64,000 bases of DNA from an uncultured Acidobacteriota bacterium (GTDB taxonomy: Bacteria > Acidobacteriota > Vicinamibacteria > Vicinamibacterales > Fen-181), in contig CAVRWB010000016.1 of assembly GCA_963724775.1 (NCBI GenBank), positions 28,815 to 92,814 of the forward strand. Reading direction: 5' to 3'. Within the stretch, counting starts at the first letter, position 1. Each line of letters starts with the position of its first letter. This document shows positions 21,253-34,527 of this stretch, piece after piece. Both the position numbers and the translations under genes were made by a program. The notes under the pieces were generated by a model. The model was not told where the DNA came from. It did no database searches and saw only the letters and a list, made by a program, of their open reading frames with translations.

Positions 21253-22047
21253 TTAAGCCTTCATTTCGAACCTCATACAGCACTGCCCGAAGTAGATCTC
21301 GTCGCCCGGCTGGAGCCTGACGCCGCGCGGGCTGCCGCTCGGCAGCTCGATCGTGCGGCCGTCGCGGAAAATGCGCGTGCCGTGCGAGCTGTGGTCGTCG
21401 AAGAGGCGGTACTCGCCCGAGGCCGAACGCAGGATGTGAGCCTGGGCGCGCGATACCGTCTCGTTCGCCCCTTCACCCCCCTCGGAGAAGACCACCTGGT
21501 TGCGCCGCGCCACCCGGCGCTCCTTGTCGAGCACCTCGGCGATTCGCCCGATGTTCGTCCGCGCTGCGGTCAGGGCGTAGGCCTTGCGCGTGGTCGCGCC
21601 TTTCACGACGACGAGTTGAGCGACAGCGCCAGGCTGCGGGTTGGCGACCGAGGCCGCCACCGTCGCCTGGTCGCCTGCAACCTGGAACACACGACCGGTC
21701 TCCCAGTCGGCTCCCTGCTTTCGGATGTACCGCAGCCGCACTTCGAGACCAGGGACCTTCGCGCAGCCCGCCTCGCGCAGCCGCTCCTCGATTGCCGTTC
21801 GCAGGCCGGCCTCACCGCCCAGGACCGCGTCGATGGCCGCGCGGCGCCTGGTGTTGCCGACGACGATGGCGACGTCGACGCGGGTGTAGGGAAAAACCGG
21901 CTTCGAGCGCGGGCCTGGCTGGGCCAGCTCCTCGACCTCGTCGAGAATCGCCCGCCGCATCTCGACCGGCTCCAGCGGCACGTCGCCGCGCGCGGCCAGC
22001 TTTTCAATCCGCTTCTCGAGCTTGGCAACCTTGTCGAAGATGCCCAT
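21253..22047 (-). CDS. FHA-domain protein (FhaA-like: N-terminal DUF3662-like region, C-terminal FHA)
   Basis: The C-terminal region (NIGR...SRAQAHI...GTRIFRDG) is FHA-like. The N-terminus MGIFDKVAKLEKRIE is FhaA-like. Confidence 0.6.
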   Translation of the reverse strand: MGIFDKVAKLEKRIEKLAARGDVPLEPVEMRRAILDEVEELAQPGPRSKPVFPYTRVDVAIVVGNTRRRAAIDAVLGGEAGLRTAIEERLREAGCAKVPGLEVRLRYIRKQGADWETGRVFQVAGDQATVAASVANPQPGAVAQLVVVKGATTRKAYALTAARTNIGRIAEVLDKERRVARRNQVVFSEGGEGANETVSRAQAHILRSASGEYRLFDDHSSHGTRIFRDGRTIELPSGSPRGVRLQPGDEIYFGQCCMRFEMKA

Positions 22048-22084
22048 AGCGATCTCACGAGGATATACCGCAGCAGGCGCAGAG

Positions 22085-22272
22085 ACAGGCGGGACGCCTG
22101 TCCTACGGCCTGCCGCACCGCTGAACAGGCGGCGAGACGCCTGTCCTACGGCCTACCGCACCGACAGGCGAGACGCCTGTCCTACGGCCTACGCCGACAG
22201 GCGACCCTGCCACCGACAGGCGAGACGCCTGTCCTACGGCCTGCCGCACCGACAGGCGGGACGCCTGTCCTA
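22085..22272. repeat. Five to six tandem copies of an about 37-bp unit GACAGGCGRGACGCCTGTCCTACGGCCTRCCGCACC, each with a 7-bp-stem hairpin; no unique spacers
   Basis: Read directly from the sequence. The last copy overlaps the stop codon of the SEDS-PBP gene. Confidence 0.75.
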
Positions 22273-25200
22273 CTGGACCAGACCCAGCTCGCGCGCGGTC
22301 GTGACGATGCGACCGGCGATCGGGGCCGCGACGCTCGCGCCGTAGCCGCCGTGCTCCACGATGACGGCAAACGCGATGCGCTGCCGGGCCGACCCGTACG
22401 GCGCGAAGCCCACGAACCACGAATGCGACGGCGCATCCTGCACTTCGGCGGTACCCGTCTTGCCGGCAATCGGCGGCTCGATCCCTTTCAGGCTGCGGCC
22501 CGTGCCCTCGAGCACCACCTCGCGCATCGCGCGCGCCAGCGTCTGCGCGTCGGCTGCCGACAGGATCGGCCGCGGCGGGTCCACCCGCTGGTTCGTCTCG
22601 TCGGCGACCCAGCGTCCCTGCGGCATCGCCCCCCCGCCGGCGATCGTGGCGGCGACTCGCGCCATCTTCAACGGCGATGCGAGGACCTGGCCCTGGCCGT
22701 ACGCGGCGAAGGGCAGCAGGTCGCGAACCGCGCGCGGGTTGGCCGGCGGCGCGAGCGGAATTTCGTAGAGATCGGCTGTCTCCTGCAGGGCCGGCGCGCC
22801 AATGTGCAGGCCCAGTTGGGCGAAGTAGGCGTTGCAGGAGACAACGAGGCCGCGTTCCAGGTCGATCGTGCCATGCGGCGTCCTGTCGGCCGGATCGTCG
22901 CGAATCGGCCGGCCCCACCCCGGGATCTTCTGCCCGACGCGCCCGTCCGGCAGCCGTTCGCACGTGAACGGCTGGTGCAGGAGCGCCGGGTTCTTGCGGA
23001 GCGCGGCGCTGGCCGTGACCAGCTTGAAGCTGGAGCCGGGTGGATACATGCCGTAGCGCGCGCGATCGAGCAGCGCCGCCTCGCGTTCTTCCGGCGAGGC
23101 GTTGCGCGAGGTCGGCTGCGAGCCTTCCGCGGCGGGCCACGGGTAGCTGACCGCCGCCAGGAGGTCGCCGTCGCCTGACAGCACGACCGCCGCCCCCTCC
23201 TTGCGCCCGGCCTGGTCGACTCCGCTTTTCACGATCTCGCCCAGCTTCAACTGCATCCGGACGTCGATCGAGAGGCGGACGTCGCGCGGCCGCGCGAGCA
23301 GCCGCTTCACCGACTCATCGTCCGGGTTGTACCGCTTGCGGAGGAGGGGGATCAGCTCGGTGAGATCCCGTCGAAGGACCCGGGTCTTCGCGCCGGTCCG
23401 CGCGTCCGGCACCTCGACCACCCTCGCGTGGTCGTCGTAACCGCGCAGCCGCGCGTCGCTGTCCCGCTCGACGAACGACGTGTTGCTTGCCGCCCAGTTG
23501 GCCTGCGTGCGGAAATCGCCGAGCAGATGGTACGTCAGGCCGCCGAAGGGGTAGCATCGCGCTCCGCCAGTCCCGCACGCTGGCGCAGGCGTGACGCCCA
23601 GCTTCGTCAGGTCCTCCGCGTGACCGGCGAGATCTGCCGGCCGGCTCGTGGCGAGGGGAATGCCGTTCCGGTCGAAGATCGTCCCTCGCTCGATCAGCCG
23701 TGCCACGGCGAGCAGCCGCGGGTTGTACTCGAAACGGCGCTCGCCGTCGGCCTGCACCGTCAGCGCCGGGGCGATGAGGGTCCGGTTGGGGTTGACCACC
23801 TGCACCATGGCCGCCCGGCCCAGCGCGGCGAGGAGCAGGACGGCCACGGCGCCGGCGAGCGCCAGCGCCGGGCGCTCGAACTCCGGCTTCGGGGCAGCAT
23901 CCTGCGCGCGCGCGCCGATCGCGAGGATCATCCCGATCGCGAACAGGTTGGCGATCATCGAGGAGCGGCCGTAGCTGAGAAACGGCGTCGCCACGCCGGT
24001 GAGCGGCATGAGGCCGAGCAGGCCGGCGGCGATCAGCGCGAGCTGCAGGACCAGTCCGAGGGTCAGGCCAAGCGCCAGGAAGAACGTGTAGTCGCCGGGC
24101 GCCCTCAGCGCGATGCGCAGGCAGCGCCAGGCGACGAGCCCGAACAGGACGACAACGGCCGCGATCCCCGCGAACCCCAGTTCCTCGCCGACCACCGCGA
24201 GGATCAGATCGGTGTGACCGGCCGGGATCAGCCGCGGATCGCCCAGGCCGAGCCCGGTGCCGGAGACCGCGCCAGCGGCGAGCGCCCAGAGCGCGTGCGC
24301 GACCTGATCGCCGCCGCGGACGACATTGTCCCAGGGCGACATCCACATCTGCACGCGCTGGACCACGGTATGCGGGAAGCCAAGCAGGTAGCCGGCCAGG
24401 AATCCGGAGACGAGCAGCCCCAGCCCGACGCCGACCATCGTCAGACGGCGCCTCGCAACGCCGTACATCGCGAGGAACACGCAGGCGAGCACCAGCGCGG
24501 GCCCGAGGTCCTTCTGCAGGAAGAAGAACACCAGGATGAGCGCCATCCCGACGAGGACCGGCAGCACGAAGTCCAGGCGCGGGACGTCGAACCCGAAGCG
24601 CGCGGCGCCGCCCAGGCGAGGCTCCTTGAGCGAGCGGAGCAGCTCCCAGCGGTTGGCGAAGTAGCCCGCGAGAAACAAGACGACCAGGACGCGTATGGCT
24701 TCGACCGGCTGCGCGCCGAGCAGGTTGACCTTGGCGTCGCTCGTGCCCGGCCCGCTGCCGAAGATGATCAACAGCACGGAGAGGCCGATGGCGCCGAGCA
24801 GCGGCACGTAGCTCAGGCGCCGCAGCTGCGAGCGTTGAAGATCGACCAGCCGCACGAGCATGAGCCCGATGAGGCCGACGACCACGCCTTGCGAGAAGCG
24901 CGGAAACAGCGCGGCGTCACGAAGGGGATCGCGCAGGCTGATCATCATCGCGAAACCGACGCCGCACAGCAGGTGGACAGCGGGCAGGAGCAGCGGATCC
25001 GACGAGAGCCGGCGCGCGCGAGCCGAGATCCAGGCGACGTAGAACGCCGCCACGAACAGCGCGCTCGCGAGGATGAGATCCGTGCGGAATGTTCGCCAGG
25101 CGCGCACGACGAGCGACGGCCGCAGCGCGCCGAGCTGCGACGGCGTCAGCAGCGGGACGGTGACAGTCGTGGAATCCGGCTTCAGCCGGATCTGACCGGC

Positions 25201-25647
25201 GGCATCGAGCTGCGCCCGCCGTCCGCCCAGCCGCTGCCGGAATGTGACCAGCCGTCGGTTCGCCTTCACGTCGGCGTCCGACACCGTGATGGCGCCCAGT
25301 GCGCCGACACTCGGGACGCGCCGCCGCAGATCGCCGCTGCCGTCGGGCGTCGTGAGCCAGGCGGTGATGCGGTCGGCCACGAAGCGGCGCTCGGCGGGGT
25401 CCGCGACGACGCCGTCGAGGACCGGCAGGAGCTGTTCCGCGCGATCGATCGTGTTGATGTCCAGGAGCGGCGTGCCGGCGGTGCTCGCGTTCGCGTCAGC
25501 CGCCTTCGCGCTGAACACCAGCCACACTCCCGCCAGCGACACGAGCGACGCGACGAGGAGCGCCGCGAGTTCGAGCGACGGGGAGCCGCTGCGCCGCCGG
25601 GTGGCGCGGACCGCACGTTCGGCCGCGGTGGTGTGGGTGATACGCAT
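22270..25647 (-). CDS. Natural fusion: SEDS family (RodA/FtsW) peptidoglycan polymerase and class B penicillin-binding protein (transpeptidase)
   Basis: Single uninterrupted 1125-aa ORF. The N-terminal half has about 10 TM helices with SEDS motifs (GHTDLILAVVGEELGFAG; PFLSYGRSS). Then comes a TM anchor and a PBP dimerisation plus transpeptidase domain (SSFK, SCN, KTGTAE). Confidence 0.75.
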   Translation of the reverse strand: MRITHTTAAERAVRATRRRSGSPSLELAALLVASLVSLAGVWLVFSAKAADANASTAGTPLLDINTIDRAEQLLPVLDGVVADPAERRFVADRITAWLTTPDGSGDLRRRVPSVGALGAITVSDADVKANRRLVTFRQRLGGRRAQLDAAGQIRLKPDSTTVTVPLLTPSQLGALRPSLVVRAWRTFRTDLILASALFVAAFYVAWISARARRLSSDPLLLPAVHLLCGVGFAMMISLRDPLRDAALFPRFSQGVVVGLIGLMLVRLVDLQRSQLRRLSYVPLLGAIGLSVLLIIFGSGPGTSDAKVNLLGAQPVEAIRVLVVLFLAGYFANRWELLRSLKEPRLGGAARFGFDVPRLDFVLPVLVGMALILVFFFLQKDLGPALVLACVFLAMYGVARRRLTMVGVGLGLLVSGFLAGYLLGFPHTVVQRVQMWMSPWDNVVRGGDQVAHALWALAAGAVSGTGLGLGDPRLIPAGHTDLILAVVGEELGFAGIAAVVVLFGLVAWRCLRIALRAPGDYTFFLALGLTLGLVLQLALIAAGLLGLMPLTGVATPFLSYGRSSMIANLFAIGMILAIGARAQDAAPKPEFERPALALAGAVAVLLLAALGRAAMVQVVNPNRTLIAPALTVQADGERRFEYNPRLLAVARLIERGTIFDRNGIPLATSRPADLAGHAEDLTKLGVTPAPACGTGGARCYPFGGLTYHLLGDFRTQANWAASNTSFVERDSDARLRGYDDHARVVEVPDARTGAKTRVLRRDLTELIPLLRKRYNPDDESVKRLLARPRDVRLSIDVRMQLKLGEIVKSGVDQAGRKEGAAVVLSGDGDLLAAVSYPWPAAEGSQPTSRNASPEEREAALLDRARYGMYPPGSSFKLVTASAALRKNPALLHQPFTCERLPDGRVGQKIPGWGRPIRDDPADRTPHGTIDLERGLVVSCNAYFAQLGLHIGAPALQETADLYEIPLAPPANPRAVRDLLPFAAYGQGQVLASPLKMARVAATIAGGGAMPQGRWVADETNQRVDPPRPILSAADAQTLARAMREVVLEGTGRSLKGIEPPIAGKTGTAEVQDAPSHSWFVGFAPYGSARQRIAFAVIVEHGGYGASVAAPIAGRIVTTARELGLVQ

Positions 25648-25735
25648 CGAATGTCCTGGGTCAATCCGGTAGGCAGGAGTGCAGTGGGTGCAAGCGGTGC
25701 AGAGAAGCGCCGGGCTACGACGTGCCTACTGTCTG

Positions 25736-27877
25736 CTACCCTGCTACCTCGTGGCACCACTGCCTGACAGCCCAGACTGCCACACTGCAGGCGAGACGCC
25801 CTGCCACGTGACTAGGCGAGACTTCTTCTCCATCTCCTGCGGCTGCGTTCCGCGCCAGTTGCTTGTCCACCTCGTCGAGGCGAGACTGGATCGCGCGCAC
25901 GCTCGCGCTCGCCTCGCCAAAGCCAATCGCTTTCTGATAGAGGTCGAGCGCCTGGCGGTAGTCGTCCGCCGCCTTCTGGAGGCACTCGCGTTCCTGATCG
26001 AGGCCGCGCACGGCCGTCGCCTCGCGGCGCCACCGGTCGGCGCGGTTGCGGTAGCCATCGGCGAGTTGGACCAGCTCGCGGTTCCCGGCCCGATACCCCC
26101 GTTGCTCGGCTTCTTTCAGCACCGCGATGGCCTTGTCGAGATCGTCGAGGCCGTAGATGTAGGTCCGGGCCAGGCCCAGGTACGGGTCGGGCCACCGGCT
26201 GTCCACCCGGCCGGCTTCCTCGAACTTGGCGACGGCGTCCCGGAACGCCTCCGTGGTCGAGAGCTTCTTTCGCTTGCGCGCCTCGCCGTCGATCCGCCGC
26301 AAATGACCCTCACAGTAGCGCAGGCGCGCGGCGGCCCCTCGGTCGCCGGGATCGAGGTTGAGGACATCCGTCAGCCAGGTGGCGGCATCGCGCCACTGCG
26401 CTTCGCGCACCGTCGGCGCGTCCTGCCGGTAGTCGGCGATGACCCGCTCCGACTGTGACATCAGCCGGTCCTTCATCGCGCCTTTCACGCCGACGAGCCC
26501 GATGCCGAGGAGGCTGCGGTGCGCCAGCCCCTGGTATTCGTCCCAGAGGCCCTGCATCGCCGAATTCTCGACGGTTGCGAGCCCGACGCGAATGCGGCGC
26601 GCCGCCGTCCACACGCTGACCTCGTTGACGATCAGGCCGATCACCGTCAGGAGGAGCAGGGCGGAGGCCCACCTTGCCGAGGCGCGGGCGCGAATCGGCG
26701 CGCGCGAACGCGGGCTGCTCGGTACAGCCGGAATCGGCGGAATCGGCACCGCGGCGCCTGCCGCCGCCAGCACCGTGCGGCGAGTCGCCTCGCTGTCGGC
26801 CTCCGCGGTCGGAGGGCCTGCATCCGTTCGCCTCGTGGCCTCGGCTTCGATCAGGACATCCGCCGCGGCCTCCGTCCGACGCGTCGCGTCGCCTGCGTCG
26901 ATCGCCGCGACGGCGACGCCGCCGCTCGCGCTGACGTCGCGGCCGCCCTGCACGGCGATCGCAACGGGGACGCCCGTTCGCCGGGTTTCGCCCTCGGGTT
27001 GCAGCGCCATCCATTCGGCGTCCGCCACCGTCGGCTCGCCGCGCCTCAGCGCCTGCAGGTCGTGCCGAATGAGGCCGGCATCCGCGTAACGGCGCGTGGG
27101 GCTGCCGGCCAGCATCTTGAGAATGATGCGTGCGAGTGCGGGTGGACAGCTCTCGGGCAGCGGAGCCGGCGGCTGCCGCGATCGGATGAGCGACTCGAGC
27201 GCCTGGCTCGTGTCGGCCTCGTACGGCACGGCGCCGGCGACCATCTCGTAGAGCAGGATGCCCACGGACCAGAAGTCGACGTGCGGATCGACCTCGCCCG
27301 TGTCGAGGCGCTCCGGCGAGAGGTAGCTGAGGCTCCCGAAGTCGTTGCGCGTGAGCTTCCGGCTGAGCGCGAGCCCCTTGGCGATCCCGAAGTCCAGCAC
27401 CTTCACATCGCCCGCGCGATTCAGGCGGACGTTCTTCGGCTTGATGTCGCCGTGGATGATCCCGCGGATGCGCCGGTCGTCGAGCGTCGCCTCGAACTGG
27501 TGGGCCTTCTCGAGGAAATCGCAGATCTCCACCGCCACCCGGGCAGCGTCCTCGGCGGCCATCGGCGCCTGCGCGATCCGCTCCGCCAGGTCCTCGCCGT
27601 CGACGTACTCCATGTCGATGTAGAAGTAGCCGGCGATCGTGCCGTAACCATGGACGCGCGGCACGTGCCCGTCCACCTCGCAAAACTGTTCCTGCAGGAG
27701 GGCGCCCCGCCGCTCGGCTTCGCAGATGTCCTTCGAATCGCGGTCCGGGCGGATCTCCACCAGCTTGAGCGCCACCTCGGCACCGCGCTCGGTGTCCGTC
27801 GCCAGGTAGACGTCGGCCATCCCGCCCCGCCCGAGGCGCCGAATCAGCCGGTACTTGCCGAAGTCACGATCGAGCAT
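25736..27877 (-). CDS. Ser/Thr protein kinase (PknB-like) with TM helix and an about 290-aa extracellular alpha-helical domain
   Basis: GRGGMADVY...ALK, HGDIKPKN, DFG and SPE kinase motifs. A linker carries 4 copies of (E/D)ATRRT, followed by a TM helix ALLLLTVIGLIV. Confidence 0.85.
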   Translation of the reverse strand: MLDRDFGKYRLIRRLGRGGMADVYLATDTERGAEVALKLVEIRPDRDSKDICEAERRGALLQEQFCEVDGHVPRVHGYGTIAGYFYIDMEYVDGEDLAERIAQAPMAAEDAARVAVEICDFLEKAHQFEATLDDRRIRGIIHGDIKPKNVRLNRAGDVKVLDFGIAKGLALSRKLTRNDFGSLSYLSPERLDTGEVDPHVDFWSVGILLYEMVAGAVPYEADTSQALESLIRSRQPPAPLPESCPPALARIILKMLAGSPTRRYADAGLIRHDLQALRRGEPTVADAEWMALQPEGETRRTGVPVAIAVQGGRDVSASGGVAVAAIDAGDATRRTEAAADVLIEAEATRRTDAGPPTAEADSEATRRTVLAAAGAAVPIPPIPAVPSSPRSRAPIRARASARWASALLLLTVIGLIVNEVSVWTAARRIRVGLATVENSAMQGLWDEYQGLAHRSLLGIGLVGVKGAMKDRLMSQSERVIADYRQDAPTVREAQWRDAATWLTDVLNLDPGDRGAAARLRYCEGHLRRIDGEARKRKKLSTTEAFRDAVAKFEEAGRVDSRWPDPYLGLARTYIYGLDDLDKAIAVLKEAEQRGYRAGNRELVQLADGYRNRADRWRREATAVRGLDQERECLQKAADDYRQALDLYQKAIGFGEASASVRAIQSRLDEVDKQLARNAAAGDGEEVSPSHVAGRLACSVAVWAVRQWCHEVAG

Positions 27878-27921
27878 GGGAAGAAGGGCTCAGGGCCTCA
27901 AGGCTTACGGCTTCCACACCT

Positions 27922-29619
27922 CTACTTCCGGCGCGGCGCAGGTGTCGCGCCGTGCGGCGGCGCCGGGAGGCCGATCACGTTGTCGCGCAGCAAGTCGGCC
28001 CTCTTGTCGGCGGCCAGGCCCCAGACCTGGTCCTCGGCGTTTCCCGCGATCACGTTGCCGAAGAACACGGCCGACGCGCCCTCCTGAAGAACGACGGCGG
28101 GCGGCAGACGAGGTCCGGTCGAGTCGGGCACCCGCACGCCGCCGGCGGGCGCCTTGCCGTTGCCGGTGATCACGTTGTGCAAGAGCCTGGGGAACGCCCT
28201 GGCGTCCACCAGCACGGCCACCTCTCGGTTGTCGTGCAGATAACTGCCGCGGAGGACCGCACGGGACCCTTCGCCGAAGACCACGGCGAACCGGTCGGCG
28301 CCGGCGATCTCGAGATCCTCGAGAACGGCTTCCCCGCTGCCCTCCGTACCGTCGCCCGCCATCACGGCTGCCGGGCTGTCAATCTTGAATCCCGCCAGCC
28401 GGCTGCCGTTCGTCACCCGCACGCCCGGGCCGGCCACTGGCGCCCCGGCGGCAAAGCGAAGGACGGCTTCCCGCGACCGCCGGGAGACGACGCTGACACC
28501 CGGCGGCACGACAATCGGCAAGTCGTACGCGCCGGGCTCCACCTCCACGATGTCGCCCGGCAACGCCCGCTCGAGGGCTTCGGGTATCGTCGCGAACTCG
28601 GCGTCGGGCTGCGGGCCGACGTGCCACGTCCTGGTCCAGCCGGCCGGGCGCGACACTCGGAGCAGCCAGTCCGGTGCCGCATCGGTCGTCAGCACGATCG
28701 CGGCCGCCGCGGACAGCCCGGCGAGCAGGCCGTAGGCGAGCATCGCCGGGCGCGAGACGAGCGCCTCTCGCACTTTGCGCGCCGCACCGGCCATCCGGGA
28801 CCGTCCACCTGCGCCACCGTCGGGAATGCCGGTGCGCAGCCGGCGTTTTGCGGCCTCCGCGAATCCCGGTCCTTCGACGACGACGACGGTGACGTTGTCC
28901 TTCCCGCCCGCCTGGTTCGCCGCCTCGATCAGCCGCTCCGCGGCGCGACCGGGATCGCCCGCGTGCTCCAGCAGGATGCGCGCAAGCCGCGCGGACGGGA
29001 CCATGTCACTCAGGCCGTCCGTGCACAGCAGCAGCGCGCTGTCCCCCTCGAACGGCTGGTCGATGAGCTCGATGAACCCCTCGTCTCCCGGCTCGTGCGG
29101 CTCGGATCCCACGTCGCGGTAGATCTCGTTGCGACGCGGGTGGTGCATCGCCTCGGTCTCGTCAATCTCTCCCTGGTCCTCGCGCTCGCCGACCGGCGAA
29201 TGGTCGTGCGTGACCTTCGCGAAGCCGCTTGCGGTGGACGCGTAGAGGCGCGTGTCGCCGACGTGCCCGACCGTCAGGCGTCCGTCGCGGACGAGCGCGA
29301 CCGTCAGCACGCAGGCCATTCCGTGCCACGCCGGCTCGCTCGCCCCGGCGCGCACGATCTCGTTGTTGGCCAGCGCGATCGCCTCGCGCACGCGGTCCCC
29401 GGGCTGGCCCGTCTCGCGCTCCAGCCGCGCCCGGATCATCGTCAAGGCCGTCTCGGCGGCCTTCTCGCCGGCCGCGTGGCCGCCGACGCCGTCGATGACC
29501 ATGAAGAAGCCCCGGGCGGCATCGCAGTGAAAACGGTCCTCGTTGTTCTCGCGTTGCAGGCCGGCATGGCTGGCGCCGGCCGCGGCGAGGGCGGGGCGGG
29601 TGAGGGCGGCGCTAGGCAT
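27922..29619 (-). CDS. PP2C-family Ser/Thr phosphatase fused to TM helix and extracellular parallel-beta-helix-like repeat domain
   Basis: N-terminal PP2C motifs (ENNEDRF, VIDGVGGHAAGE, DGLSD, GGKDNVTVVVV). A TM helix LAYGLLAGLSAAAAIVL follows. The C-terminal repeats (NVITGNG, GNVIAGNAED) resemble NosD / pectate-lyase beta-helix. Confidence 0.75.
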   Translation of the reverse strand: MPSAALTRPALAAAGASHAGLQRENNEDRFHCDAARGFFMVIDGVGGHAAGEKAAETALTMIRARLERETGQPGDRVREAIALANNEIVRAGASEPAWHGMACVLTVALVRDGRLTVGHVGDTRLYASTASGFAKVTHDHSPVGEREDQGEIDETEAMHHPRRNEIYRDVGSEPHEPGDEGFIELIDQPFEGDSALLLCTDGLSDMVPSARLARILLEHAGDPGRAAERLIEAANQAGGKDNVTVVVVEGPGFAEAAKRRLRTGIPDGGAGGRSRMAGAARKVREALVSRPAMLAYGLLAGLSAAAAIVLTTDAAPDWLLRVSRPAGWTRTWHVGPQPDAEFATIPEALERALPGDIVEVEPGAYDLPIVVPPGVSVVSRRSREAVLRFAAGAPVAGPGVRVTNGSRLAGFKIDSPAAVMAGDGTEGSGEAVLEDLEIAGADRFAVVFGEGSRAVLRGSYLHDNREVAVLVDARAFPRLLHNVITGNGKAPAGGVRVPDSTGPRLPPAVVLQEGASAVFFGNVIAGNAEDQVWGLAADKRADLLRDNVIGLPAPPHGATPAPRRK

Positions 29620-29712
29620 CGCGGGACAGGCTGAGGAAGACGAGGCCGCCGGCGGCCGCGAACAGCAAGGCCAGGTAGAGGAAGCGCAGCGAGTGCAGCC
29701 AGCTCATCGCGC
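29612..29712 (-). CDS. Candidate 31-aa hydrophobic peptide (MSWLHSLRFLYLALLFAAAGGLVFLSLSRDA) between the FHA and PP2C genes; its stop overlaps the PP2C start
   Basis: Found only by translating the sequence. One predicted TM helix; no other support. Confidence 0.2.
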
Positions 29713-30606
29713 GCCCCCCGCTTCGAAGTCGAGCACGATGACGTTGGCCAGGCCGATTCGCGCCCGCGCCGGCAGCGGCACTTCCACCCCCTTGTCGCGC
29801 TTGCGCCCTTCGACCACCTCGATGCTCGACGGCACGGCCTCGCCGTCCACCGTCGTGCCGAGGCTGCTGAGATCCTTGAGGAAGAACTGGCCCGTCGCCT
29901 CGTCGCGCCGCAGCCGCAGGTGCTCGCGCGACACGTCCGCGGAGGTGTCGAGCTTCACGTCCACCCAGTAGCCCACGCCGCCGCGCCCGACCACCAGCTG
30001 GTTCTTGGTGATGGCGATCTTCTGCGGCCCCCGACGATCTTCATACGCAAGGGTGCCGAAGATGGTTCCGCCCGAGGCTGGCGCGGGTGTCACGGGCCCG
30101 GTCGAGATCACCTGCTCGCGCGTGCTCGTCGACTCGCCCAGGCGCATCGTCGTGATGCGGCGCGTACGCGTGCCGTCGAACTCGGGCTGCTTCGGGAACG
30201 TCAGCTCCGAGGCGATCGCAATGTCGCCCGGCTGCATCTCGCCGTCGGCATCCGGCTCGAACCGGATGTCCCAGGGTTCCGGCGGGGGCTCGATCGGCAG
30301 CGGCCGGTCCTCGCCCCCGACGCCAGCCCTGAGCGAGGCCGCGACGCGGTCGAGTCGAAGGGGCCACTTGTTCGGCTTTGCCTTGCCGTTCCACTTCCGG
30401 ACCTCCTCGTCGAGCGCGCGCCGCGCCTGCTCGACGAGGAGCGGGAAGATGCCCTCCAGCCGCTGGTGATCGGCCGGGTGCAGGTAGACGAAGAAACGCG
30501 TCGGCGCGACGGTCGAGAACAGGAGCGGCTCGACGTTGCCGCGCATGGCGCGGACGATCTCGAGAATGATGTCGCGGCCGGTGGCCAGCTTGTCGGTGTC
30601 GTCCAT
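29704..30606 (-). CDS. FHA-domain protein (FhaA-like)
   Basis: C-terminal FHA domain (VVGRGG...SREHLRLRRD...GQFFLKDLSSLGTTVDGE). The N-terminal region resembles DUF3662. Confidence 0.7.
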   Translation of the reverse strand: MDDTDKLATGRDIILEIVRAMRGNVEPLLFSTVAPTRFFVYLHPADHQRLEGIFPLLVEQARRALDEEVRKWNGKAKPNKWPLRLDRVAASLRAGVGGEDRPLPIEPPPEPWDIRFEPDADGEMQPGDIAIASELTFPKQPEFDGTRTRRITTMRLGESTSTREQVISTGPVTPAPASGGTIFGTLAYEDRRGPQKIAITKNQLVVGRGGVGYWVDVKLDTSADVSREHLRLRRDEATGQFFLKDLSSLGTTVDGEAVPSSIEVVEGRKRDKGVEVPLPARARIGLANVIVLDFEAGGAR

Positions 30607-30810
30607 CGGGAGACTACGTTACCACCCTGCCACTTTCACGTGTAGCGCGAACGTTCCGTTCGGCCCCAAGCCGCGGGGCCGAGGGTCCACCGGTCTCCGC
30701 CCTTCGCGTGATGCAGAGCACCGCCAGCATCGCCAGGGGCAGGACCACGCATGCCAGCGTGACGAACGTCGCAACGAAGATCAGGAAGATCACGCTCTGC
30801 TCCCGTCCGC

Positions 30811-32951
30811 TCACCGGTTCGAGTCATCGGCGGCCTCGTCGGCCGCCGGATGGACGATGTCCTCGGCGGCGGGCGGTTGGCCGCCGCTCGCCGCGAACCC
30901 CTCGACGAATCGTTCCAGCTCGCGCAGGTTGGAGGCGTCCCGGCCTCCGTCGGCCAGGTCGAGCCCGGCCTTTTCGGCGAGCAGCATCGAGAGCAGCTTG
31001 CCGAAGAGGCTCAGGCCCGCCAGCGGCGCCGCGCCGCCGTCGCCGCCCATCATGAGCATCCGCTCCGGCACCAGCGGCTGCTGGCTGCGCGCCATCTGCT
31101 CGCGACACCAGGTTCAGCGCGAAGAGGCGCGGGTCGCCGTAGGCCCGGATCTTCTTGAGGAACACACCCGCCTCGGCGAGACCCGTCTGCGCGATGCGCG
31201 ACGCCTCGCCGCGGCCGAGCAGCTCGCGCGCGCGGCCCTCGCCGTCCGCCCGCGTCACGTCGCGCTCCGCGAGCCGGCGCGCCTCGGCAAGCTGCGCCTC
31301 GCCGCGGTTGGCCGCGATGGACACATCCACTGCCGTCTGCGTCAGCTCCGTCTGCTTGTCCGCCGCGGCGCGCGCCTCGTTCAGCTCGCGCTGCTTGGTC
31401 GCCGCCTCCTGCTGGCGTGCGTACGTTTCGACCTGCTCGTTGGCCAGCCGCCGCTGCCGCAGCTGGTCGAACAGGCTCTGGATCGGGTCCTGGCCCTTGT
31501 GCGCGGCGTCCAGCTGCGACTCCGGCCGGCCGATCAGCACCGCGACGCAGGTGATGTCGTAGTCGCGGAAGCGGCGTCCGAGTTCCTCGGTGCCGCGGCG
31601 CTGGATCTCCTCGCGGTGCGTCAGCAGGTCGAGCATCTGCGTCGATCTGGGCGACGTCGCGGAAGTACGCCGAGATGATCGGGTCGAGCGTCTGGCTGAT
31701 CAGCCGTCGCACGTCGCCGAACCGCTGCACCACGCGCGGCGCCATCTCGTAGTCGATGTGCAGCACCAGCGAGAGCGGCAGCAGCGGCTCGTAGCCGTCG
31801 GCGGTGATCAGCGCGATGCTCGTGAGGTCCTTGTCGTACTGGTGCTCTTCGGTCATCCCGGTGATCCACCGCAGGACGAAGTTCACCGTCGGCACCAGCT
31901 CCACCTTCAGCGCGTAGGGGTTGAGCGGGTACTTTCCGGGAGGCAGCGGCTTCCGCCAGACGCCGCGGCGGCCGGGCTCCACCTGCTCGCCGTAGCGGAA
32001 CTGCTCGCCCGTCAGGTCCTCGCCCAGGTTGCCGTAGTACGAGACCACCACGCCGACGTAGCCGATCGGGATGACGGTCTTCGGCTCGAAACTCCACCGT
32101 CGCGAACCAGCGGTTGACGAAGTACGTGCCGTCGGTGAGCACCTGGAGCTGCTTGCCGCGCCGGCCGCCGAGCGCGAGCACGGCCTCGGGGTCCTGGAAG
32201 CAGTCGTGGTCCGGCGCGCCGGCCGGCGGCGTGCACCTCGGGCGCGATGACTTCGCCCGACTCGATCGGCGGGCCGTCGTGGATCGTCACGACGCCGATG
32301 TTGTCGCGCGGCGCTGGCCCCCGCGGGGTCGTCGGTCGGCTCGGCCTCGTCGTGGCGAAGCGGCGCGCCCGAGCCGACGACGACCGGATCGAAGCCGCCG
32401 ATGTCGTGCAGCTGCGCCTGCCAGCCGGCGTAAAGCTGGTGGTTTCGCTCGCGGACCGGACCCTGGTACACGCGGTCCTCGGCGACCACGACGAAGAGCG
32501 CCAGGTTGATCGCGTAGACGCCCTCGCGCAGGATGGCGCGCTGGCGGCCGCGCTGGCCGCCGCCCGCGAGGAACGCGGCGGGCGTCCTGGAAGTTGTTGC
32601 ACGCGATGACGCGGCCGAGCGTCTGCACCGGGGCAAGCGGCTCGCCGTCGCGCGAGTAGACGTAGCCGATCTTGCCTTCCGGGATCGACGACCAGCGGCT
32701 CGCGGTGGATCCGGTACTGCCACGGGAAGTAGAAGGCGTGCACGCCGCCGCGCAGGAGGTCGGCCTGGAAGCCGGCCTCGCCGCCGGCCGCCACGATGCG
32801 ACCCTCCTTCAGCGAACCCTTTGCCCGCCCAGAGCTTCTCCACGATGCCGACCTTGTTGTGGGGGATGTAGCGGAAGCCGAGCAGCCAGGACGCGAACAC
32901 CAGGCCGAACAGGGCTTCGGCCAGCCAGATCGCCGCAGTCACGAGCGTCAC
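30811..32951 (-). CDS. Flotillin / SPFH-domain protein (YqiK-like), several apparent frameshifts
   Basis: GTG at 32951 with an AAAGGAGA RBS. Flotillin motifs (RYIPHNKVGIVEKLW, FQADLLRGGVHAFYFPWQYRIHR, LQVLTDGTYFVNRWFATVE, coiled-coil EA-rich C-terminus) lie across at least 4 frames. Confidence 0.65.
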
Positions 32952-33134
32952 AAGGGTCTCCTTTGAAGCACCCGCCGGGCGGGTGTTTCCCCTTGAGGGG
33001 CAAGCGGAGCGCCATGTGAGCCGTAACGCTATCCCTTTATGTATCAATTACTTCTGGGACGGCGCGGCGGTTAACAGGTGAGGATGATTATCAGGTAATG
33101 AGAAAAAACCTCAGGCCCGGGTAGACTGGAGGGC

Positions 33135-34527
33135 ATGCACGCGCACATCCTGGTCTTCGAGCCGCCCGGTCAGTCCCTTGCCGACCTGCGCGGCGTCATC
33201 GAGCGGGTTCTTGCGGACTCGGCGGACGTGGAGACGGTCTCCGACGCCTCCGCCTTGCTTCAGCGGGTTCGCCGCGACGCGTCGCTGGACCTGGTCGTGG
33301 TTCCCTATTCGGGGAATGAGGAGGCCGGAGGCCGGCGCGAGCGTGCGGAGCCTGAGGGCCTGCGATGCCGAGTTGCCGATCGTGGCGGTGGCGACGCACG
33401 GCGACGTGAAGCTGGCCGCGGAGGCGGTCAGCGCCGGTGCCACGGACTTCCTCGTGCGCGGCGATCGCCTCGAAGAACGGGTGCGAACCCTGCTCGGAAA
33501 GCTGCGGCGCATCGTCCTGCTGTTGCGGCAGAACCGGTCGCTCGCCGAGCAGAACCGGCAGCTGCGGGGAACTGATGCGGAGCGGTCTCGCCTCGTCGGT
33601 GAGTCGCTGCCGATCCGGGAGGTGCGGGAGCGCATTGCGCGCGTCGCGGTGATTCCGCGCCCCGTGTTGATCCTCGGCGAGCGCGGCACGGGCAAGGAGC
33701 TGGTGGCGCGGGCGATTCACGCCGCGTCGGGGCGAACCGACGGGCCGTTCGTTGCCGTCAACTGTGCGGCGTTTCCCGAAGCCCTGCTCGAGAGCGAGCT
33801 GTTCGGCCACGAGAAGGGCGCCTTCACGGGCGCCGACCGCCTCGTGCCGGGCAAGTTCGAGCAGGCGTCGGGCGGGACGCTCTTCCTCGACGAGATCTCG
33901 CACATGCCGACCGCCTTCCAGCAGAAGATCCTGCGGGTGGTCGAGTACGGCACGTTCGCCCGGGTTGGCGGCACGCGGGACGTGCGGGCCGACGTACGCG
34001 TGGTCGCCGCCAGCAATGCCGACCTCGAGCAGGGCATTCGAGACGGATGGTTCCTCGCCGACCTGTACGATCGCCTCGCGTTCGACGTGGTGCGGGTGCC
34101 GCCGCTGCGCGAGCGGCGGGGCGACGTTCCGATCCTGGCGACGCACTTTCTTCGCGAGTTCCTCCGCGAGGTGCCCGCGCTCGGTGAGAAGCCGTTTGCC
34201 GCGGACGCGATGGCCGCGCTGGAGCGTTACGCGTTCCCGGGCAACGTGCGCGAGCTGAAGACCATCATCGAGCGCGCGGCCTACCGCGACACCACGCAGG
34301 AGATCAACGTCGAGGACCTCGCGCTGCCCCGCGACGCGACCAACGGCGCGGAAGGCACCTTCGAAGAGCGCGTGGCCGCCTACGAACGCCGGCTCGTCGA
34401 GCATGCGCTGGCGGCCGCGGGAGGCAACCAGGCGGAGGCCGCGCGCAGCCTCGGCCTGGCGTATCACCGGTTCCGGTACTACCTGCAGAAAGGCAGGACA
34501 GCGCGGACCTCGGAACGGCGAACGTAG
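33135..34527 (+). CDS. Sigma-54-dependent transcriptional activator (NtrC family) with apparently degenerate receiver domain; apparent frameshift near 33330
   Basis: AAA+ sigma-54 interaction domain (GERGTGKELVARAIH, GAFTGA, ESELFGHEKGAFTGA) and a C-terminal Fis-type HTH. The N-terminal receiver lacks the usual DD pocket and the phospho-acceptor Asp (ILVFEPPG...LDLVVVPYS). Confidence 0.75.

What the first reader, a model, noticed from the sequence alone, without database searches (positions are those of the whole stretch)
21253..30606. Actinobacteria-like FHA/PP2C/STPK/SEDS/PBP morphogenesis cluster in a non-actinobacterial context, with rearranged order
Five consecutive minus-strand genes encode FHA (29704-30606), PP2C (27922-29619), Ser/Thr kinase (25736-27877), a SEDS-class B PBP (22270-25647) and a second FHA protein (21253-22047). 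This mirrors the fhaA-fhaB-pstP-rodA-pbpA-pknA-pknB cell-shape and division cluster of Actinobacteria. The rest of the window looks acidobacterial (ADOP permeases, PEP-CTERM). Here the phosphatase and kinase carry large extracellular domains and rodA and pbpA are fused.
Basis: partly seen in the sequence, partly recalled or inferred. Interest (0 to 1): 0.65.

Follow-up and report, generated by a model that had tools for sequence, protein, structure and literature searches.

The report
Phospho-regulated fused cell-wall synthase operon
This is a real five-gene operon, conserved across the soil phylum Acidobacteriota, that pairs a fused cell-wall polymerase/cross-linker with its own membrane kinase, phosphatase and two phosphothreonine-reader proteins; it is a Gram-negative relative of the well-known actinobacterial cell-growth locus, not an oddity of this genome.

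Summary

- **Conservation.** The block is a conserved operon, not an island. At least 591 GTDB species genomes carry a relative of the fusion. All 80 best loci are labelled Acidobacteriota, apart from one Verrucomicrobiia-labelled MAG contig. The same five-gene order occurs in 61 of 80, and 12 more are cut by contig ends. GC matches the flanks (0.707 versus 0.692).
- **Outside the phylum.** A Spirosoma (Bacteroidota) plasmid carries the same order with one-to-one counterparts.
- **Link to Actinobacteria.** The SEDS domain groups with actinobacterial cluster RodA, apart from canonical RodA, FtsW and SpoVE (NJ bootstrap 194-200 of 200). This supports shared descent. The transpeptidase tree is unresolved.
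Both FHA proteins are FhaA-type, with an FhaA_N domain and no membrane helix, so there is no FhaB. There is one kinase, non-RD, with a periplasmic TPR domain and no PASTA. The phosphatase ectodomain is a right-handed beta-helix. The fusion has a family-private N-terminal module (helix, periplasmic domain, helix).
- **Candidate phospho-sites.** Conserved threonine motifs occur in the kinase linker (D-A-T-R-R-T, 1-4 copies), at the synthase N-terminus (M-A-V-T-R-S-T) and in the FHA1 linker (T-K/R-R-I).

Function is inferred, not shown. I rate it a new variant of a known kind.

The parts
29704..30606 (-). FHA1. A soluble FhaA-type phosphothreonine reader of 300 aa. It has a partial FhaA_N-like domain (res 8-71, nt 30394-30585), a linker with an invariant Thr148 in G-x-x-T-[KR]-R-I (nt 30148-30174), and an FHA domain (res 182-291, nt 29734-30063).
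   Evidence: Pfam FHA matches 39 of 39 orthologs and FhaA_N matches 39 of 39, best 1.3e-6. hhalign of the N-domain against actinobacterial FhaA gives Prob 79.6, E 1.5e-5, and the FHA domain gives E 6.6e-13. No hydrophobic helix. Thr148 is invariant.
27922..29619 (-). Membrane PP2C (PPM) Ser/Thr phosphatase. The cytoplasmic catalytic domain is res 12-250, a single membrane helix is res 292-310 (nt 28690-28746), and a periplasmic right-handed beta-helix domain is res ~330-565 (nt 27925-28632).
   Evidence: Pfam PP2C 7e-16; NCBIfam Stp1_PP2C 1.9e-55, below its cutoff. PDB relatives are tPphA and PstP. Beta_helix matches 30 of 30 orthologs, best 6e-16, and NosD matches 25 of 30. Metal-site motifs NED, DGxGG and GGKDN are invariant.
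25736..27877 (-). Hanks-type Ser/Thr kinase. The catalytic domain is res 7-290 (K38, HGD142-144 so non-RD, DFG, SPE). The juxtamembrane linker carries four [DE]-x-T-R-R-T repeats (res 297-370, nt 26768-26989). The membrane helix is res 401-422, and a periplasmic TPR/helical domain is res ~423-675.
   Evidence: Pkinase 1e-36. Closest solved structures are StkP, PknE, PknB and PknA. TPR_19 matches 23 of 32 orthologs and there is no PASTA. T[RK][RK][TS] occurs 114 times in 53 of 62 linkers, against 1.45 expected from shuffles. Catalytic residues are invariant.
22270..25647 (-). Fused peptidoglycan synthase of 1125 aa.
- Cytoplasmic tail with a conserved M-A-V-T-R-S-T-type motif (res 1-26, nt 25570-25647).
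- Family-private module of helix, ~140-aa periplasmic helical domain and helix (res 1-215, nt 25003-25647).
- SEDS glycosyltransferase with 10 helices (res 216-585, nt 23893-25002).
- Class B PBP helix, pedestal-like module and transpeptidase (res 586-1125, nt 22273-23892).
21253..22047 (-). FHA2. A soluble FhaA-type reader of 264 aa and the synthase's closest partner. It has a complete FhaA N-domain (res 1-126, nt 21670-22047) and a divergent FHA domain with an insertion (res ~140-264).
22083..22270 (.). Array of about five REP-like palindromes (36-bp period, core GGACAGGCG-NNN-CGCCTGTC) inserted between the synthase stop codon and FHA2. This insertion is specific to this genome; in other genomes the two genes abut.
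   Evidence: (10 matches versus 0.09 expected; one more copy at 44-63)
30614..30793 (-). Candidate small membrane-protein ORF of 59 aa with a GTG start, ending 8 nt before the FHA1 start codon. It is found only in the nearest relatives and is not part of the phylum-wide core.
   Evidence: positional homologs in L001, L002 and L003 only

Best explanation
The block is one operon encoding a self-contained, phosphorylation-gated peptidoglycan synthase.

**Shown from sequence or fold**
- The 1125-aa protein joins a SEDS glycan polymerase to a class B transpeptidase, so polymerisation and cross-linking sit in one chain. All catalytic motifs are intact.
- The operon also encodes a membrane Hanks kinase with a periplasmic TPR domain.
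- It encodes a membrane PP2C phosphatase with a periplasmic beta-helix domain, a fold typical of glycan-binding proteins.
- It encodes two soluble FhaA-type proteins, each with an FhaA_N domain and an FHA domain.

**Inferred**
- The kinase autophosphorylates the repeated D-A-T-R-R-T sites in its juxtamembrane linker.
- It also phosphorylates Thr4 of the synthase's cytoplasmic tail (M-A-V-T-R-S-T) and Thr148 of FHA1 (T-K/R-R-I).
- The FHA domains dock on these phosphothreonines. FHA2, which is translationally coupled to the synthase, acts as its direct adaptor or regulator. FHA1 bridges to the kinase or folds back on its own phospho-linker, as GarA does.
- The phosphatase resets the system.
- The two periplasmic domains couple this switch to the state of the envelope.

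**Descent**
The module shares ancestry with the actinobacterial fhaA-pstP-rodA-pbpA-pknB locus and with an identically ordered cluster in Bacteroidota. I could not determine whether it is the main elongation synthase of Acidobacteriota or an accessory one.
For: - **Operon.** Same strand, with median gaps of -4 to 0 nt from PP2C to STK to the fusion to FHA2 across loci. The five-gene order holds in 61 of 80 loci from four or more acidobacterial classes, and only these five genes are conserved there. An independent public gene call on a 7.04-Mb contig gives the same five genes.
- **FHA readers.**
- **Phospho-site candidates.** The TRRT-type motif is 114 observed versus 1.45 expected in otherwise unconserved linkers. 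At the synthase N-terminus, residue 4 is T in 53 of 61 sequences and S in 8, and residue 11 is R in 61 of 61. FHA1 Thr148 is invariant with I or V at +3, and Spirosoma FHAa has V-T-R-R-V in the same linker. One Bryobacteraceae clade changes all three motifs together.
- **Common descent.** SEDS NJ tree. FhaA_N domains. Spirosoma plasmid cluster in the same order with reciprocal profile hits.
- **Precedent.** In mycobacteria pstP is cotranscribed with rodA and pbpA, and FhaA and FhaB are phosphothreonine readers that regulate growth and division (PMC6554272).
Against: - There is no experimental datum for any acidobacterial member. Phosphorylation, FHA docking and the sensing roles are all inference.
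- Both FHA domains replace the usual Asn of the S-x-N-G-T loop (L in FHA1, H or Y in FHA2). In this order FHA2 reads S-R-A-Q-A-H instead of S-R-x-H-A-H. The peptide-binding mode may therefore differ.
- The co-variation of motifs is a single clade event.
- The Spirosoma kinases and synthase N-terminus lack the TRRT and TRST motifs.
- The transpeptidase tree does not tie the fusion to PbpA (22 of 200).
- The SEDS tree is NJ on 20 sequences, with no actinobacterial FtsW and no acidobacterial canonical RodA or FtsW.
- Periplasmic location of the C-terminal domains rests on a hydropathy scan and a single helix.
Confidence: 0.6

Rival explanations
1. The fusion is simply the housekeeping Rod-system synthase (the RodA-PBP2 orthologue) of Acidobacteriota. 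It works with MreBCD encoded elsewhere, and the kinase, phosphatase and FHA genes are a lineage-specific regulatory add-on.
For: The transpeptidase scores best against the pbp2_mrdA model among NCBIfam PBP models (148.7 bits). A 2025 survey links SEDS-bPBP chimeras to elongation, because producers keep FtsW and FtsI (PMC12516126).
Against: The SEDS domain separates from canonical RodA (E. coli, Stenotrophomonas, Monoglobus rodA) with 194 of 200 bootstraps and scores higher on the FtsW model than on the RodA model, both far below cutoff. No mre gene is linked in any of 80 loci. Some Bryobacteraceae carry a second copy of the fusion-FHA2 pair, which is unusual for an essential single-copy machine. 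I could not check whether separate rodA and mrdA genes exist in these genomes.
Confidence: 0.2
2. It is an accessory synthase used only under particular conditions such as envelope stress or repair, dormancy, or cell differentiation. This would be analogous to SpoVE-SpoVD or the alternative bPBPs of Salmonella, with the kinase and phosphatase acting as the condition sensor.
For: The operon is self-contained with its own sensors. Its genomic location is variable. Paralogous fusion-FHA2 pairs exist. The Spirosoma version is plasmid-borne and therefore dispensable. In Monoglobus an FHA-linked SEDS-PBP pair coexists with a canonical rodA.
Against: It is conserved in at least 591 species genomes across the phylum with high sequence conservation, which suggests a core function. 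No condition-specific regulator is conserved next to it, and no sigma-54 site was found upstream.
Confidence: 0.15
3. It is a recent horizontally acquired island from Actinobacteria.
For: Domain content resembles the actinobacterial locus. A related cluster sits on a plasmid in Spirosoma, so the module can move.
Against: GC is 0.707 versus 0.692 for the rest of the window, and GC3 matches the neighbours. Orthologs occur in the same order in all major acidobacterial classes, with divergence tracking taxonomy. Identity to actinobacterial proteins is only 30-37%. No mobility genes flank it.
Confidence: 0.02
4. The FHA, PP2C and STK genes form a signalling triad for something else, as Fha1/PppA/PpkA do for type VI secretion, and lie next to a cell-wall gene by chance.
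For: FHA-PP2C-STK triads are known in Gram-negative bacteria in other contexts (general knowledge).
Against: The synthase is the invariant partner in 61 of 80 loci, while every other neighbour varies. FHA2 overlaps or abuts the synthase gene. No secretion genes are present. The same linkage is seen in Bacteroidota, Actinomycetota and Clostridia.
Confidence: 0.02

Closest known systems
Actinobacterial fhaA-fhaB-pstP-rodA-pbpA-pknA-pknB locus (M. tuberculosis Rv0020c-Rv0014c). Comparators read here: Tsukamurella L084, Actinomyces oris L092, Nonomuraea L086.
   Same: - An FhaA-type protein (FhaA_N plus FHA).
- A membrane PP2C with an ectodomain.
- A membrane Hanks kinase.
- A SEDS polymerase and a class B transpeptidase in one co-oriented block.
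- The SEDS domains form one clade, 199 of 200.
   Different: - The order here is FHA1-PP2C-STK-SEDS::bPBP-FHA2.
- There are two FhaA-type proteins and no membrane-anchored FhaB.
- There is one kinase, non-RD, with a TPR rather than a PASTA ectodomain.
- The phosphatase ectodomain is a beta-helix.
- SEDS and bPBP are fused, and an extra N-terminal module precedes them.
- The host is a diderm acidobacterium.
- The relation between the transpeptidase and PbpA is unresolved.
Spirosoma oryzicola RHs26 plasmid unnamed7 cluster LQ777_RS29505-29530 (Bacteroidota). This is probably the same type as the 1341-aa Pedobacter ginsengisoli chimera flanked by a kinase and a phosphatase, described in PMC12516126.
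   Same: - Identical order: FHA, PP2C, STK, fused SEDS::TPase, FHA.
- The FHA1 and FHA2 family profiles hit the first and last FHA proteins respectively (6e-14 and 7e-12).
- The fusion is 29.9% identical over 947 columns.
- It has the same extra helix, periplasmic insert and helix before the SEDS domain.
- The SEDS clade is supported 200 of 200 and the TPase clade 175 of 200.
   Different: - It has two tandem kinases.
- No TPR or beta-helix Pfam hits were found in the ectodomains.
- The N-terminal insert contains a CarboxypepD_reg-like domain.
- No TRRT repeats are present.
- It is plasmid-borne.
SEDS-bPBP chimeras ('bifunctional class B PBPs') catalogued in 2025 (PMC12516126); Coriobacteriia fused proteins with solved transpeptidase domains (PDB 4MNR, 4OVD)
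   Different: The paper reports 117 InterPro proteins, mostly Actinomycetes, and does not describe an acidobacterial family. Here at least 591 species genomes have it, with a private N-terminal module and a fixed five-gene operon.
Canonical SEDS-bPBP pairs: RodA-PBP2 (Rod complex) and FtsW-FtsI (divisome)
   Same: Same two folds and catalytic motifs. The bPBP helix follows SEDS helix 10 directly, which is compatible with the known helix-helix interface.
   Different: The canonical pairs are separate polypeptides linked to mreBCD or the dcw cluster, and they are regulated by MreC/RodZ or FtsN/FtsQLB rather than by an operon-encoded kinase, phosphatase and FHA set. The SEDS domain here falls outside both canonical clades, and NCBIfam scores are far below the cutoffs (188 versus 337 for FtsW; 136 versus 337 for RodA).
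PASTA-kinase/PP2C pairs of Firmicutes (StkP-PhpP, PrkC-PrpC, Stk1-Stp1)
   Same: The kinase and phosphatase catalytic domains are the closest solved or curated relatives (StkP 127 bits; Stp1 model 188 bits), and they regulate wall synthesis.
   Different: Here there are no PASTA repeats, the phosphatase is membrane-anchored with an ectodomain, and the synthase and FHA readers are encoded in the same operon.

Membership tests
Actinobacterial-type FHA/PstP/RodA/PbpA/Pkn cell-wall signalling locus | FhaA-type protein: N-terminal FhaA_N (DUF3662) domain plus C-terminal FHA domain | tested here: met
Actinobacterial-type FHA/PstP/RodA/PbpA/Pkn cell-wall signalling locus | FhaB/FipA-type small FHA protein with an N-terminal membrane helix | tested here: not met
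   Neither FHA1 nor FHA2 has a hydrophobic helix, whereas Tsukamurella and A. oris FhaB do (res 10-28 and 7-25). The FHA1 and FHA2 profiles do not hit FhaB (E 5.5).
Actinobacterial-type FHA/PstP/RodA/PbpA/Pkn cell-wall signalling locus | Membrane-anchored PP2C phosphatase (PstP type) in the same block | tested here: met
   PP2C domain, one helix and a 255-aa C-terminal domain. PstP is among the closest solved structures, 3e-26. The ectodomain fold (beta-helix) is specific to this family.
Actinobacterial-type FHA/PstP/RodA/PbpA/Pkn cell-wall signalling locus | SEDS gene orthologous to cluster RodA (Rv0017c type) | tested here: met
   NJ tree of 20 sequences and 352 columns. Acidobacteriota plus Spirosoma plus actinobacterial cluster RodA: 199 of 200. 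Separation from canonical RodA, FtsW and SpoVE: 194 of 200. Sampling is limited and no ML tree was made.
Actinobacterial-type FHA/PstP/RodA/PbpA/Pkn cell-wall signalling locus | Class B PBP orthologous to PbpA (PBPA_dimer N-module) | tested here: inconclusive
Actinobacterial-type FHA/PstP/RodA/PbpA/Pkn cell-wall signalling locus | PASTA-domain kinase (PknB) and a second kinase (PknA) | tested here: not met
   A single kinase. There is no PASTA hit in 32 orthologs, and TPR is found instead. The PknB_PASTA_kin model scores 198 bits against a 450 cutoff, on the kinase domain only.
Actinobacterial-type FHA/PstP/RodA/PbpA/Pkn cell-wall signalling locus | Gene order fhaA-fhaB-pstP-rodA-pbpA-pknA-pknB | tested here: not met
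   Here the kinase precedes the synthase and one FhaA-type gene lies at each end. This order is fixed in Acidobacteriota and in Spirosoma.
SEDS peptidoglycan glycosyltransferases | Ten-helix FtsW/RodA/SpoVE fold with conserved extracellular-loop catalytic Asp (H-T-D motif) | tested here: met
Class B penicillin-binding proteins | Membrane helix, non-catalytic N-module and transpeptidase with SxxK, SxN and KTG | tested here: met
Hanks-type (eukaryote-like) Ser/Thr kinases | Catalytic Lys, catalytic loop Asp, DFG and APE-type motifs | tested here: met
   K38, D144 (H-G-D, so non-RD), D162-F-G and S-P-E189 are invariant or nearly so in 32 orthologs. Pkinase 1e-36.
PPM/PP2C phosphatases | Metal-coordinating Asp residues in the conserved motifs | tested here: met
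   N26-E27-D28, D43-G44-x-G46-G47, D201-G202 and D241-N242 are invariant in 30 orthologs. PP2C 7e-16.

The most novel reading that the evidence does not exclude
The operon represents a third, ancient class of SEDS-bPBP machine, distinct from both the Rod complex and the divisome. It would be defined by an FHA/kinase/phosphatase-linked SEDS clade that spans diderm Acidobacteriota and Bacteroidota as well as monoderm Actinomycetota and some Clostridia.

On this reading actinobacterial 'RodA' is a member of this clade rather than an orthologue of canonical RodA. In the Gram-negative form the synthase is fused and carries its own N-terminal phosphothreonine tag, which is read by a dedicated FhaA-type adaptor (FHA2). 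The kinase's TRRT repeats would serve as a multivalent FHA docking platform, and the beta-helix ectodomain of the phosphatase would read glycan strands.
Probability: 0.35. Interest if true: 0.7.

Novelty: new variant of a known kind. Interest (0 to 1): 0.55.

Why it matters
Acidobacteriota are among the most abundant soil bacteria, and almost nothing is known about how they build their wall. This operon gives a compact, testable system with one synthase, one kinase, one phosphatase, two readers and named candidate phospho-sites.

It also shows that the Ser/Thr-phosphorylation control of wall synthesis studied in mycobacteria is not confined to Gram-positive bacteria. A recognisable relative exists in two diderm phyla, with the PASTA sensor replaced by TPR and beta-helix ectodomains.

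The natural SEDS-bPBP fusion could be a convenient single-chain object for structural and biochemical work on how polymerisation and cross-linking are coupled. If the SEDS clade holds up, it would also change how actinobacterial 'RodA' is classified.

Tried and rejected
- **HGT island.** Rejected on composition and vertical conservation.
- **FhaB identity for the second FHA protein.** Rejected.
- **Sigma-54 promoter upstream of FHA1.** The divergent sigma-54 activator gene is a neighbour only in the nearest relatives. No TGGCAC-N5-TTGC site lies in 30607-31049, and the pattern is not enriched in the window.
- **Sigma-70 promoter and terminator scan.** Uninformative at 70% GC.
- **hhalign of the FHA1 N-domain against the FHA2 N-domain.** Not significant. 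The link emerged only through actinobacterial FhaA.
- **phmmer of the fusion's N-terminal 215 residues against 1.84 billion representatives.** No relatives outside the family.
- **AFDB Foldseek library.** Unavailable.
- **Literature.** Searches for this cluster in Acidobacteria found nothing. The supplement of PMC12516126 is not held.
- **Exact-sequence look-up of window FHA2.** Not on record.

Full report
**Observation**

They have the high GC3 (0.86-0.91) of real genes in this 70% GC window.

Pfam and NCBIfam confirm the domains:
- FHA plus a weak FhaA_N hit in the first protein.
- PP2C.
- A Hanks-type kinase.
- A single 1125-aa protein with FTSW_RODA_SPOVE (4.9e-50) followed by Transpeptidase (1.6e-29).
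- A second FHA protein.

The neighbours are unrelated housekeeping genes: an Lhr helicase, Fpg, an Fe-S/CCG protein, a sigma-54 activator, an ATP-dependent ligase, a PEP-CTERM protein and peptidases.

**Anatomy**

*Phosphatase.* It has a catalytic domain (res 12-250), one hydrophobic helix (res 292-310) and a 255-aa C-terminal domain. In 30 of 30 orthologs that domain matches the right-handed beta-helix family (best 6e-16; NosD in 25 of 30).

*Kinase.*
- The catalytic domain has K38, DFG and SPE intact, but an H-G-D catalytic loop, so it is a non-RD kinase.
- A poorly conserved linker follows, then one helix (res 401-422).
- The conserved helical C-terminal domain matches TPR families in 23 of 32 orthologs. 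There is no PASTA.

*Fusion.*
- It starts with a short Arg-rich tail, a helix (res 27-45), a ~140-residue mostly helical segment and a second helix (res 191-209).
- The ten SEDS helices come next, then a 13th helix (res 588-618) that is the class B PBP anchor, a ~200-residue N-module and the transpeptidase.
- The helix count places the 140-residue segment and the PBP part outside the membrane and the N-terminal tail inside. This topology is inferred.
- Catalytic motifs are conserved: H478-T-D480 in the SEDS part, and SSFK, SCN and KTG in the transpeptidase.
- The N-terminal 215 residues have only 215 relatives among 1.84 billion representatives. All match at their own N-terminus, and the full-length ones are 1016-1189 aa. 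The module is therefore private to this family.

**The two FHA proteins**

Neither has a membrane helix.
- *FHA1 orthologs* all match Pfam FHA and, weakly but consistently, FhaA_N positions ~29-88 (39 of 39, best 1.3e-6).
- *FHA2 orthologs* match FHA (39 of 39) but FhaA_N only occasionally (8 of 39).

I then obtained real actinobacterial FhaA sequences from Tsukamurella, Actinomyces oris and Nonomuraea. Profile-profile comparison with these showed:
- The FHA2 N-domain aligns end to end with the FhaA N-domain (res 1-126 against 1-120, Prob 96.5, E 1e-9).
- FHA1 aligns over a part (res 8-68 against 27-84, E 1.5e-5).

**Conservation**

- More than 120 full-length fused homologs were listed in the protein database. 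The named ones are Vicinamibacterales or Acidobacteriota.
- In one-genome-per-species GTDB contigs, at least 591 stretches encode a relative.
- All but one of the best 80 are labelled with acidobacterial groups: Vicinamibacterales, Bryobacterales/Bryobacteraceae, Acidobacteriaceae/Terriglobales, Thermoanaerobaculia and Holophagales. The exception is a Verrucomicrobiia-labelled MAG contig, L076.
- tblastn with the five window proteins finds the complete order FHA1-PP2C-STK-fusion-FHA2 in 61 of 80 loci, and 12 more are cut only by contig ends.
- Clustering all ORFs of these loci shows that only these five families are shared, and the flanks differ.
- Gaps between PP2C, STK, the fusion and FHA2 have medians of -4 to 0 nt.
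- Independent public gene calls on a 7.04-Mb contig show the same five genes.
- A few Bryobacteraceae have a stand-alone fusion-FHA2 pair, sometimes as a second copy. This marks FHA2 as the synthase's tightest partner.
- Cluster GC is 0.707, against 0.692 for the rest of the window. An island origin is excluded.

**Candidate phospho-sites (inference)**

- *Kinase linker.* Although otherwise unconserved, it carries one to four copies of [DE]-x-T-R-R-T, or T-V-R-T in one clade. T[RK][RK][TS] occurs 114 times in 53 of 62 linkers, against 1.45 expected from shuffles. The window has four copies.
- *Synthase N-terminus.* It starts with M-A-V-T-R-S-T-A-A-E-R. Residue 4 is T in 53 of 61 sequences and S in 8, and R11 is present in 61 of 61.
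- *FHA1 linker.* It has an invariant Thr148 in G-[AS]-x-T-[KR]-R-[IV]. The Spirosoma counterpart has V-T-R-R-V at the corresponding place.
- *Co-variation.* One Bryobacteraceae clade changes all three motifs together, to T-V-R-T, M-K-V-S-R-E-E and T-E-R-I.

Acidic residues before the Thr and a hydrophobic residue at +3 fit what is generally known of mycobacterial STPK sites and FHA selectivity. That comparison is from my own knowledge and was not tested here.

My model is as follows:
- The kinase phosphorylates itself, the synthase tail and FHA1.
- FHA2 docks on the synthase tail.
- FHA1 docks on the kinase or on its own linker.
- The PP2C reverses this.
- The TPR and beta-helix ectodomains tie the switch to envelope status.

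Caveats:
- Both FHA domains lack the usual Asn of the S-x-N-G-T loop.
- FHA2 in this order has Q at the canonical His position.

**Relation to known systems**

The actinobacterial seven-gene locus is described as conserved in Actinobacteria and a subset of Firmicutes (PMC6554272). I found no paper describing it in Acidobacteria. A 2025 survey catalogued 117 SEDS-transpeptidase chimeras, mostly from Actinomycetes. It noted kinase and phosphatase neighbours for Senegalimassilia faecalis and Pedobacter ginsengisoli, with function unknown (PMC12516126).

A tblastn of the fusion against annotated plasmid records gave comparators.
- *Spirosoma oryzicola (Bacteroidota).* A 137-kb plasmid carries FHA, PP2C, STK, STK, a 1323-aa fused protein and FHA, in the same order.
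  - The fusion is 29.9% identical over 947 columns.
  - The FHA1 and FHA2 profiles hit its first and last FHA proteins respectively (6e-14 and 7e-12).
  - It has the same topology, including the extra N-terminal helix, insert and helix.
- *Canonical clusters.* These were read from Tsukamurella, A. oris and Nonomuraea.
- *Monoglobus (Clostridia).* It has an FHA-SEDS-PBP trio beside a separate canonical rodA.

A neighbour-joining tree of 20 SEDS domains (352 columns, 200 bootstraps) gives:
- Acidobacteriota plus Spirosoma: 200 of 200.
- That clade plus actinobacterial cluster RodA: 199 of 200.
- All cluster-linked SEDS against canonical RodA, FtsW and SpoVE: 194 of 200.

The transpeptidase tree supports Acidobacteriota plus Spirosoma (175 of 200) but not a link to PbpA (22 of 200). 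Shared descent with the actinobacterial locus is therefore supported for the SEDS gene and the FhaA-type genes, and it remains open for the transpeptidase.

**Verdict**

The thing itself is a phylum-wide, self-contained operon for a fused SEDS-class B PBP synthase with its own kinase, phosphatase and two FhaA-type readers.

It is a new variant of a known kind. The parts and the logic are known from Actinobacteria, and the fusion type was catalogued in 2025. The following features have not been described:
- the acidobacterial and Bacteroidota form;
- its fixed gene order;
- its sensor domains;
- its private N-terminal module;
- its conserved threonine motifs.

What it does in the cell, whether main elongation synthase or accessory machine, could not be decided with these tools.

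Noticed in passing
window 22083-22270 (and 44-63): About five tandem copies of a 36-bp REP-like palindromic element (core GGACAGGCG-NNN-CGCCTGTC) fill the 222-bp gap between the synthase stop codon and FHA2. One more copy lies at the window start. There are 10 matches against 0.09 expected. In other genomes the two genes abut or overlap, so this is a lineage-specific insertion that could affect FHA2 expression or mRNA stability.
   Followed up: partly
window 30614-30793 (-): A small ORF of 59 aa with a GTG start and a strongly hydrophobic N-terminal helix ends 8 nt before the FHA1 start codon. Positional homologs exist only in the nearest relatives (L001, L002, L003). It may be a lineage-specific small membrane protein of the operon.
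   Followed up: partly
window 42810-43961 and 43705-45258 (-): Two overlapping ORFs each carry one half of a Peptidase_M28 domain. This is likely a frameshifted gene, either a pseudogene or a sequencing error.
   Followed up: no
L081 (ENA ERZ25039545 contig_39327, 224,779 bp): A public contig is about 99% identical to this region, but its gene calls are fragmented (FHA 113 aa, Pkinase 252 aa, PP2C missing). It looks like an indel-rich assembly of the same or a sister organism. Automated annotation of this operon there is misleading.
   Followed up: no
L016, L023, L024, L026, L041 (and L064): Some Bryobacteraceae and other genomes carry a stand-alone fusion-FHA2 pair without FHA1, PP2C or STK upstream. 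One MAG (SMAG_U15154) has two loci, L023 and L064. These may be paralogous copies served in trans by the kinase and phosphatase of the full operon.
   Followed up: partly
L083 (Spirosoma oryzicola plasmid NZ_CP089545.1, 69767-80323): The Bacteroidota counterpart of the whole operon sits on a 137-kb plasmid, next to a two-component system. This is a possible route for horizontal spread of the module between diderm phyla. Its N-terminal insert contains a CarboxypepD_reg-like domain instead of the acidobacterial helical domain, yet both share a D-P-x-[DE]-R-x-x-V-A motif.
   Followed up: partly
window 25736-27877, kinase residues 142-144: The catalytic loop reads H-G-D rather than H-R-D in this kinase and in at least 90% of 32 orthologs. 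It is therefore a non-RD kinase, a class that usually does not depend on activation-loop phosphorylation, unlike PknB.
   Followed up: partly
window 33178-34527 (+) and 31050-33047 (-): A sigma-54 enhancer-binding protein is divergently placed upstream of the operon in the window and its nearest relatives (L001-L005, L082). A weak SPFH/Band-7 ORF lies between them in the window and in L003. No sigma-54 promoter consensus was found upstream of FHA1.
   Followed up: partly
public annotation of FHA2 homologs (P0121-P0240): Most FHA2 homologs are annotated 'hypothetical protein' with no precomputed Pfam domain. FHA1 homologs carry only FHA. The FhaA_N domains of both families are missed by standard thresholds, which probably explains why the link to the actinobacterial locus has gone unnoticed.
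   Followed up: yes
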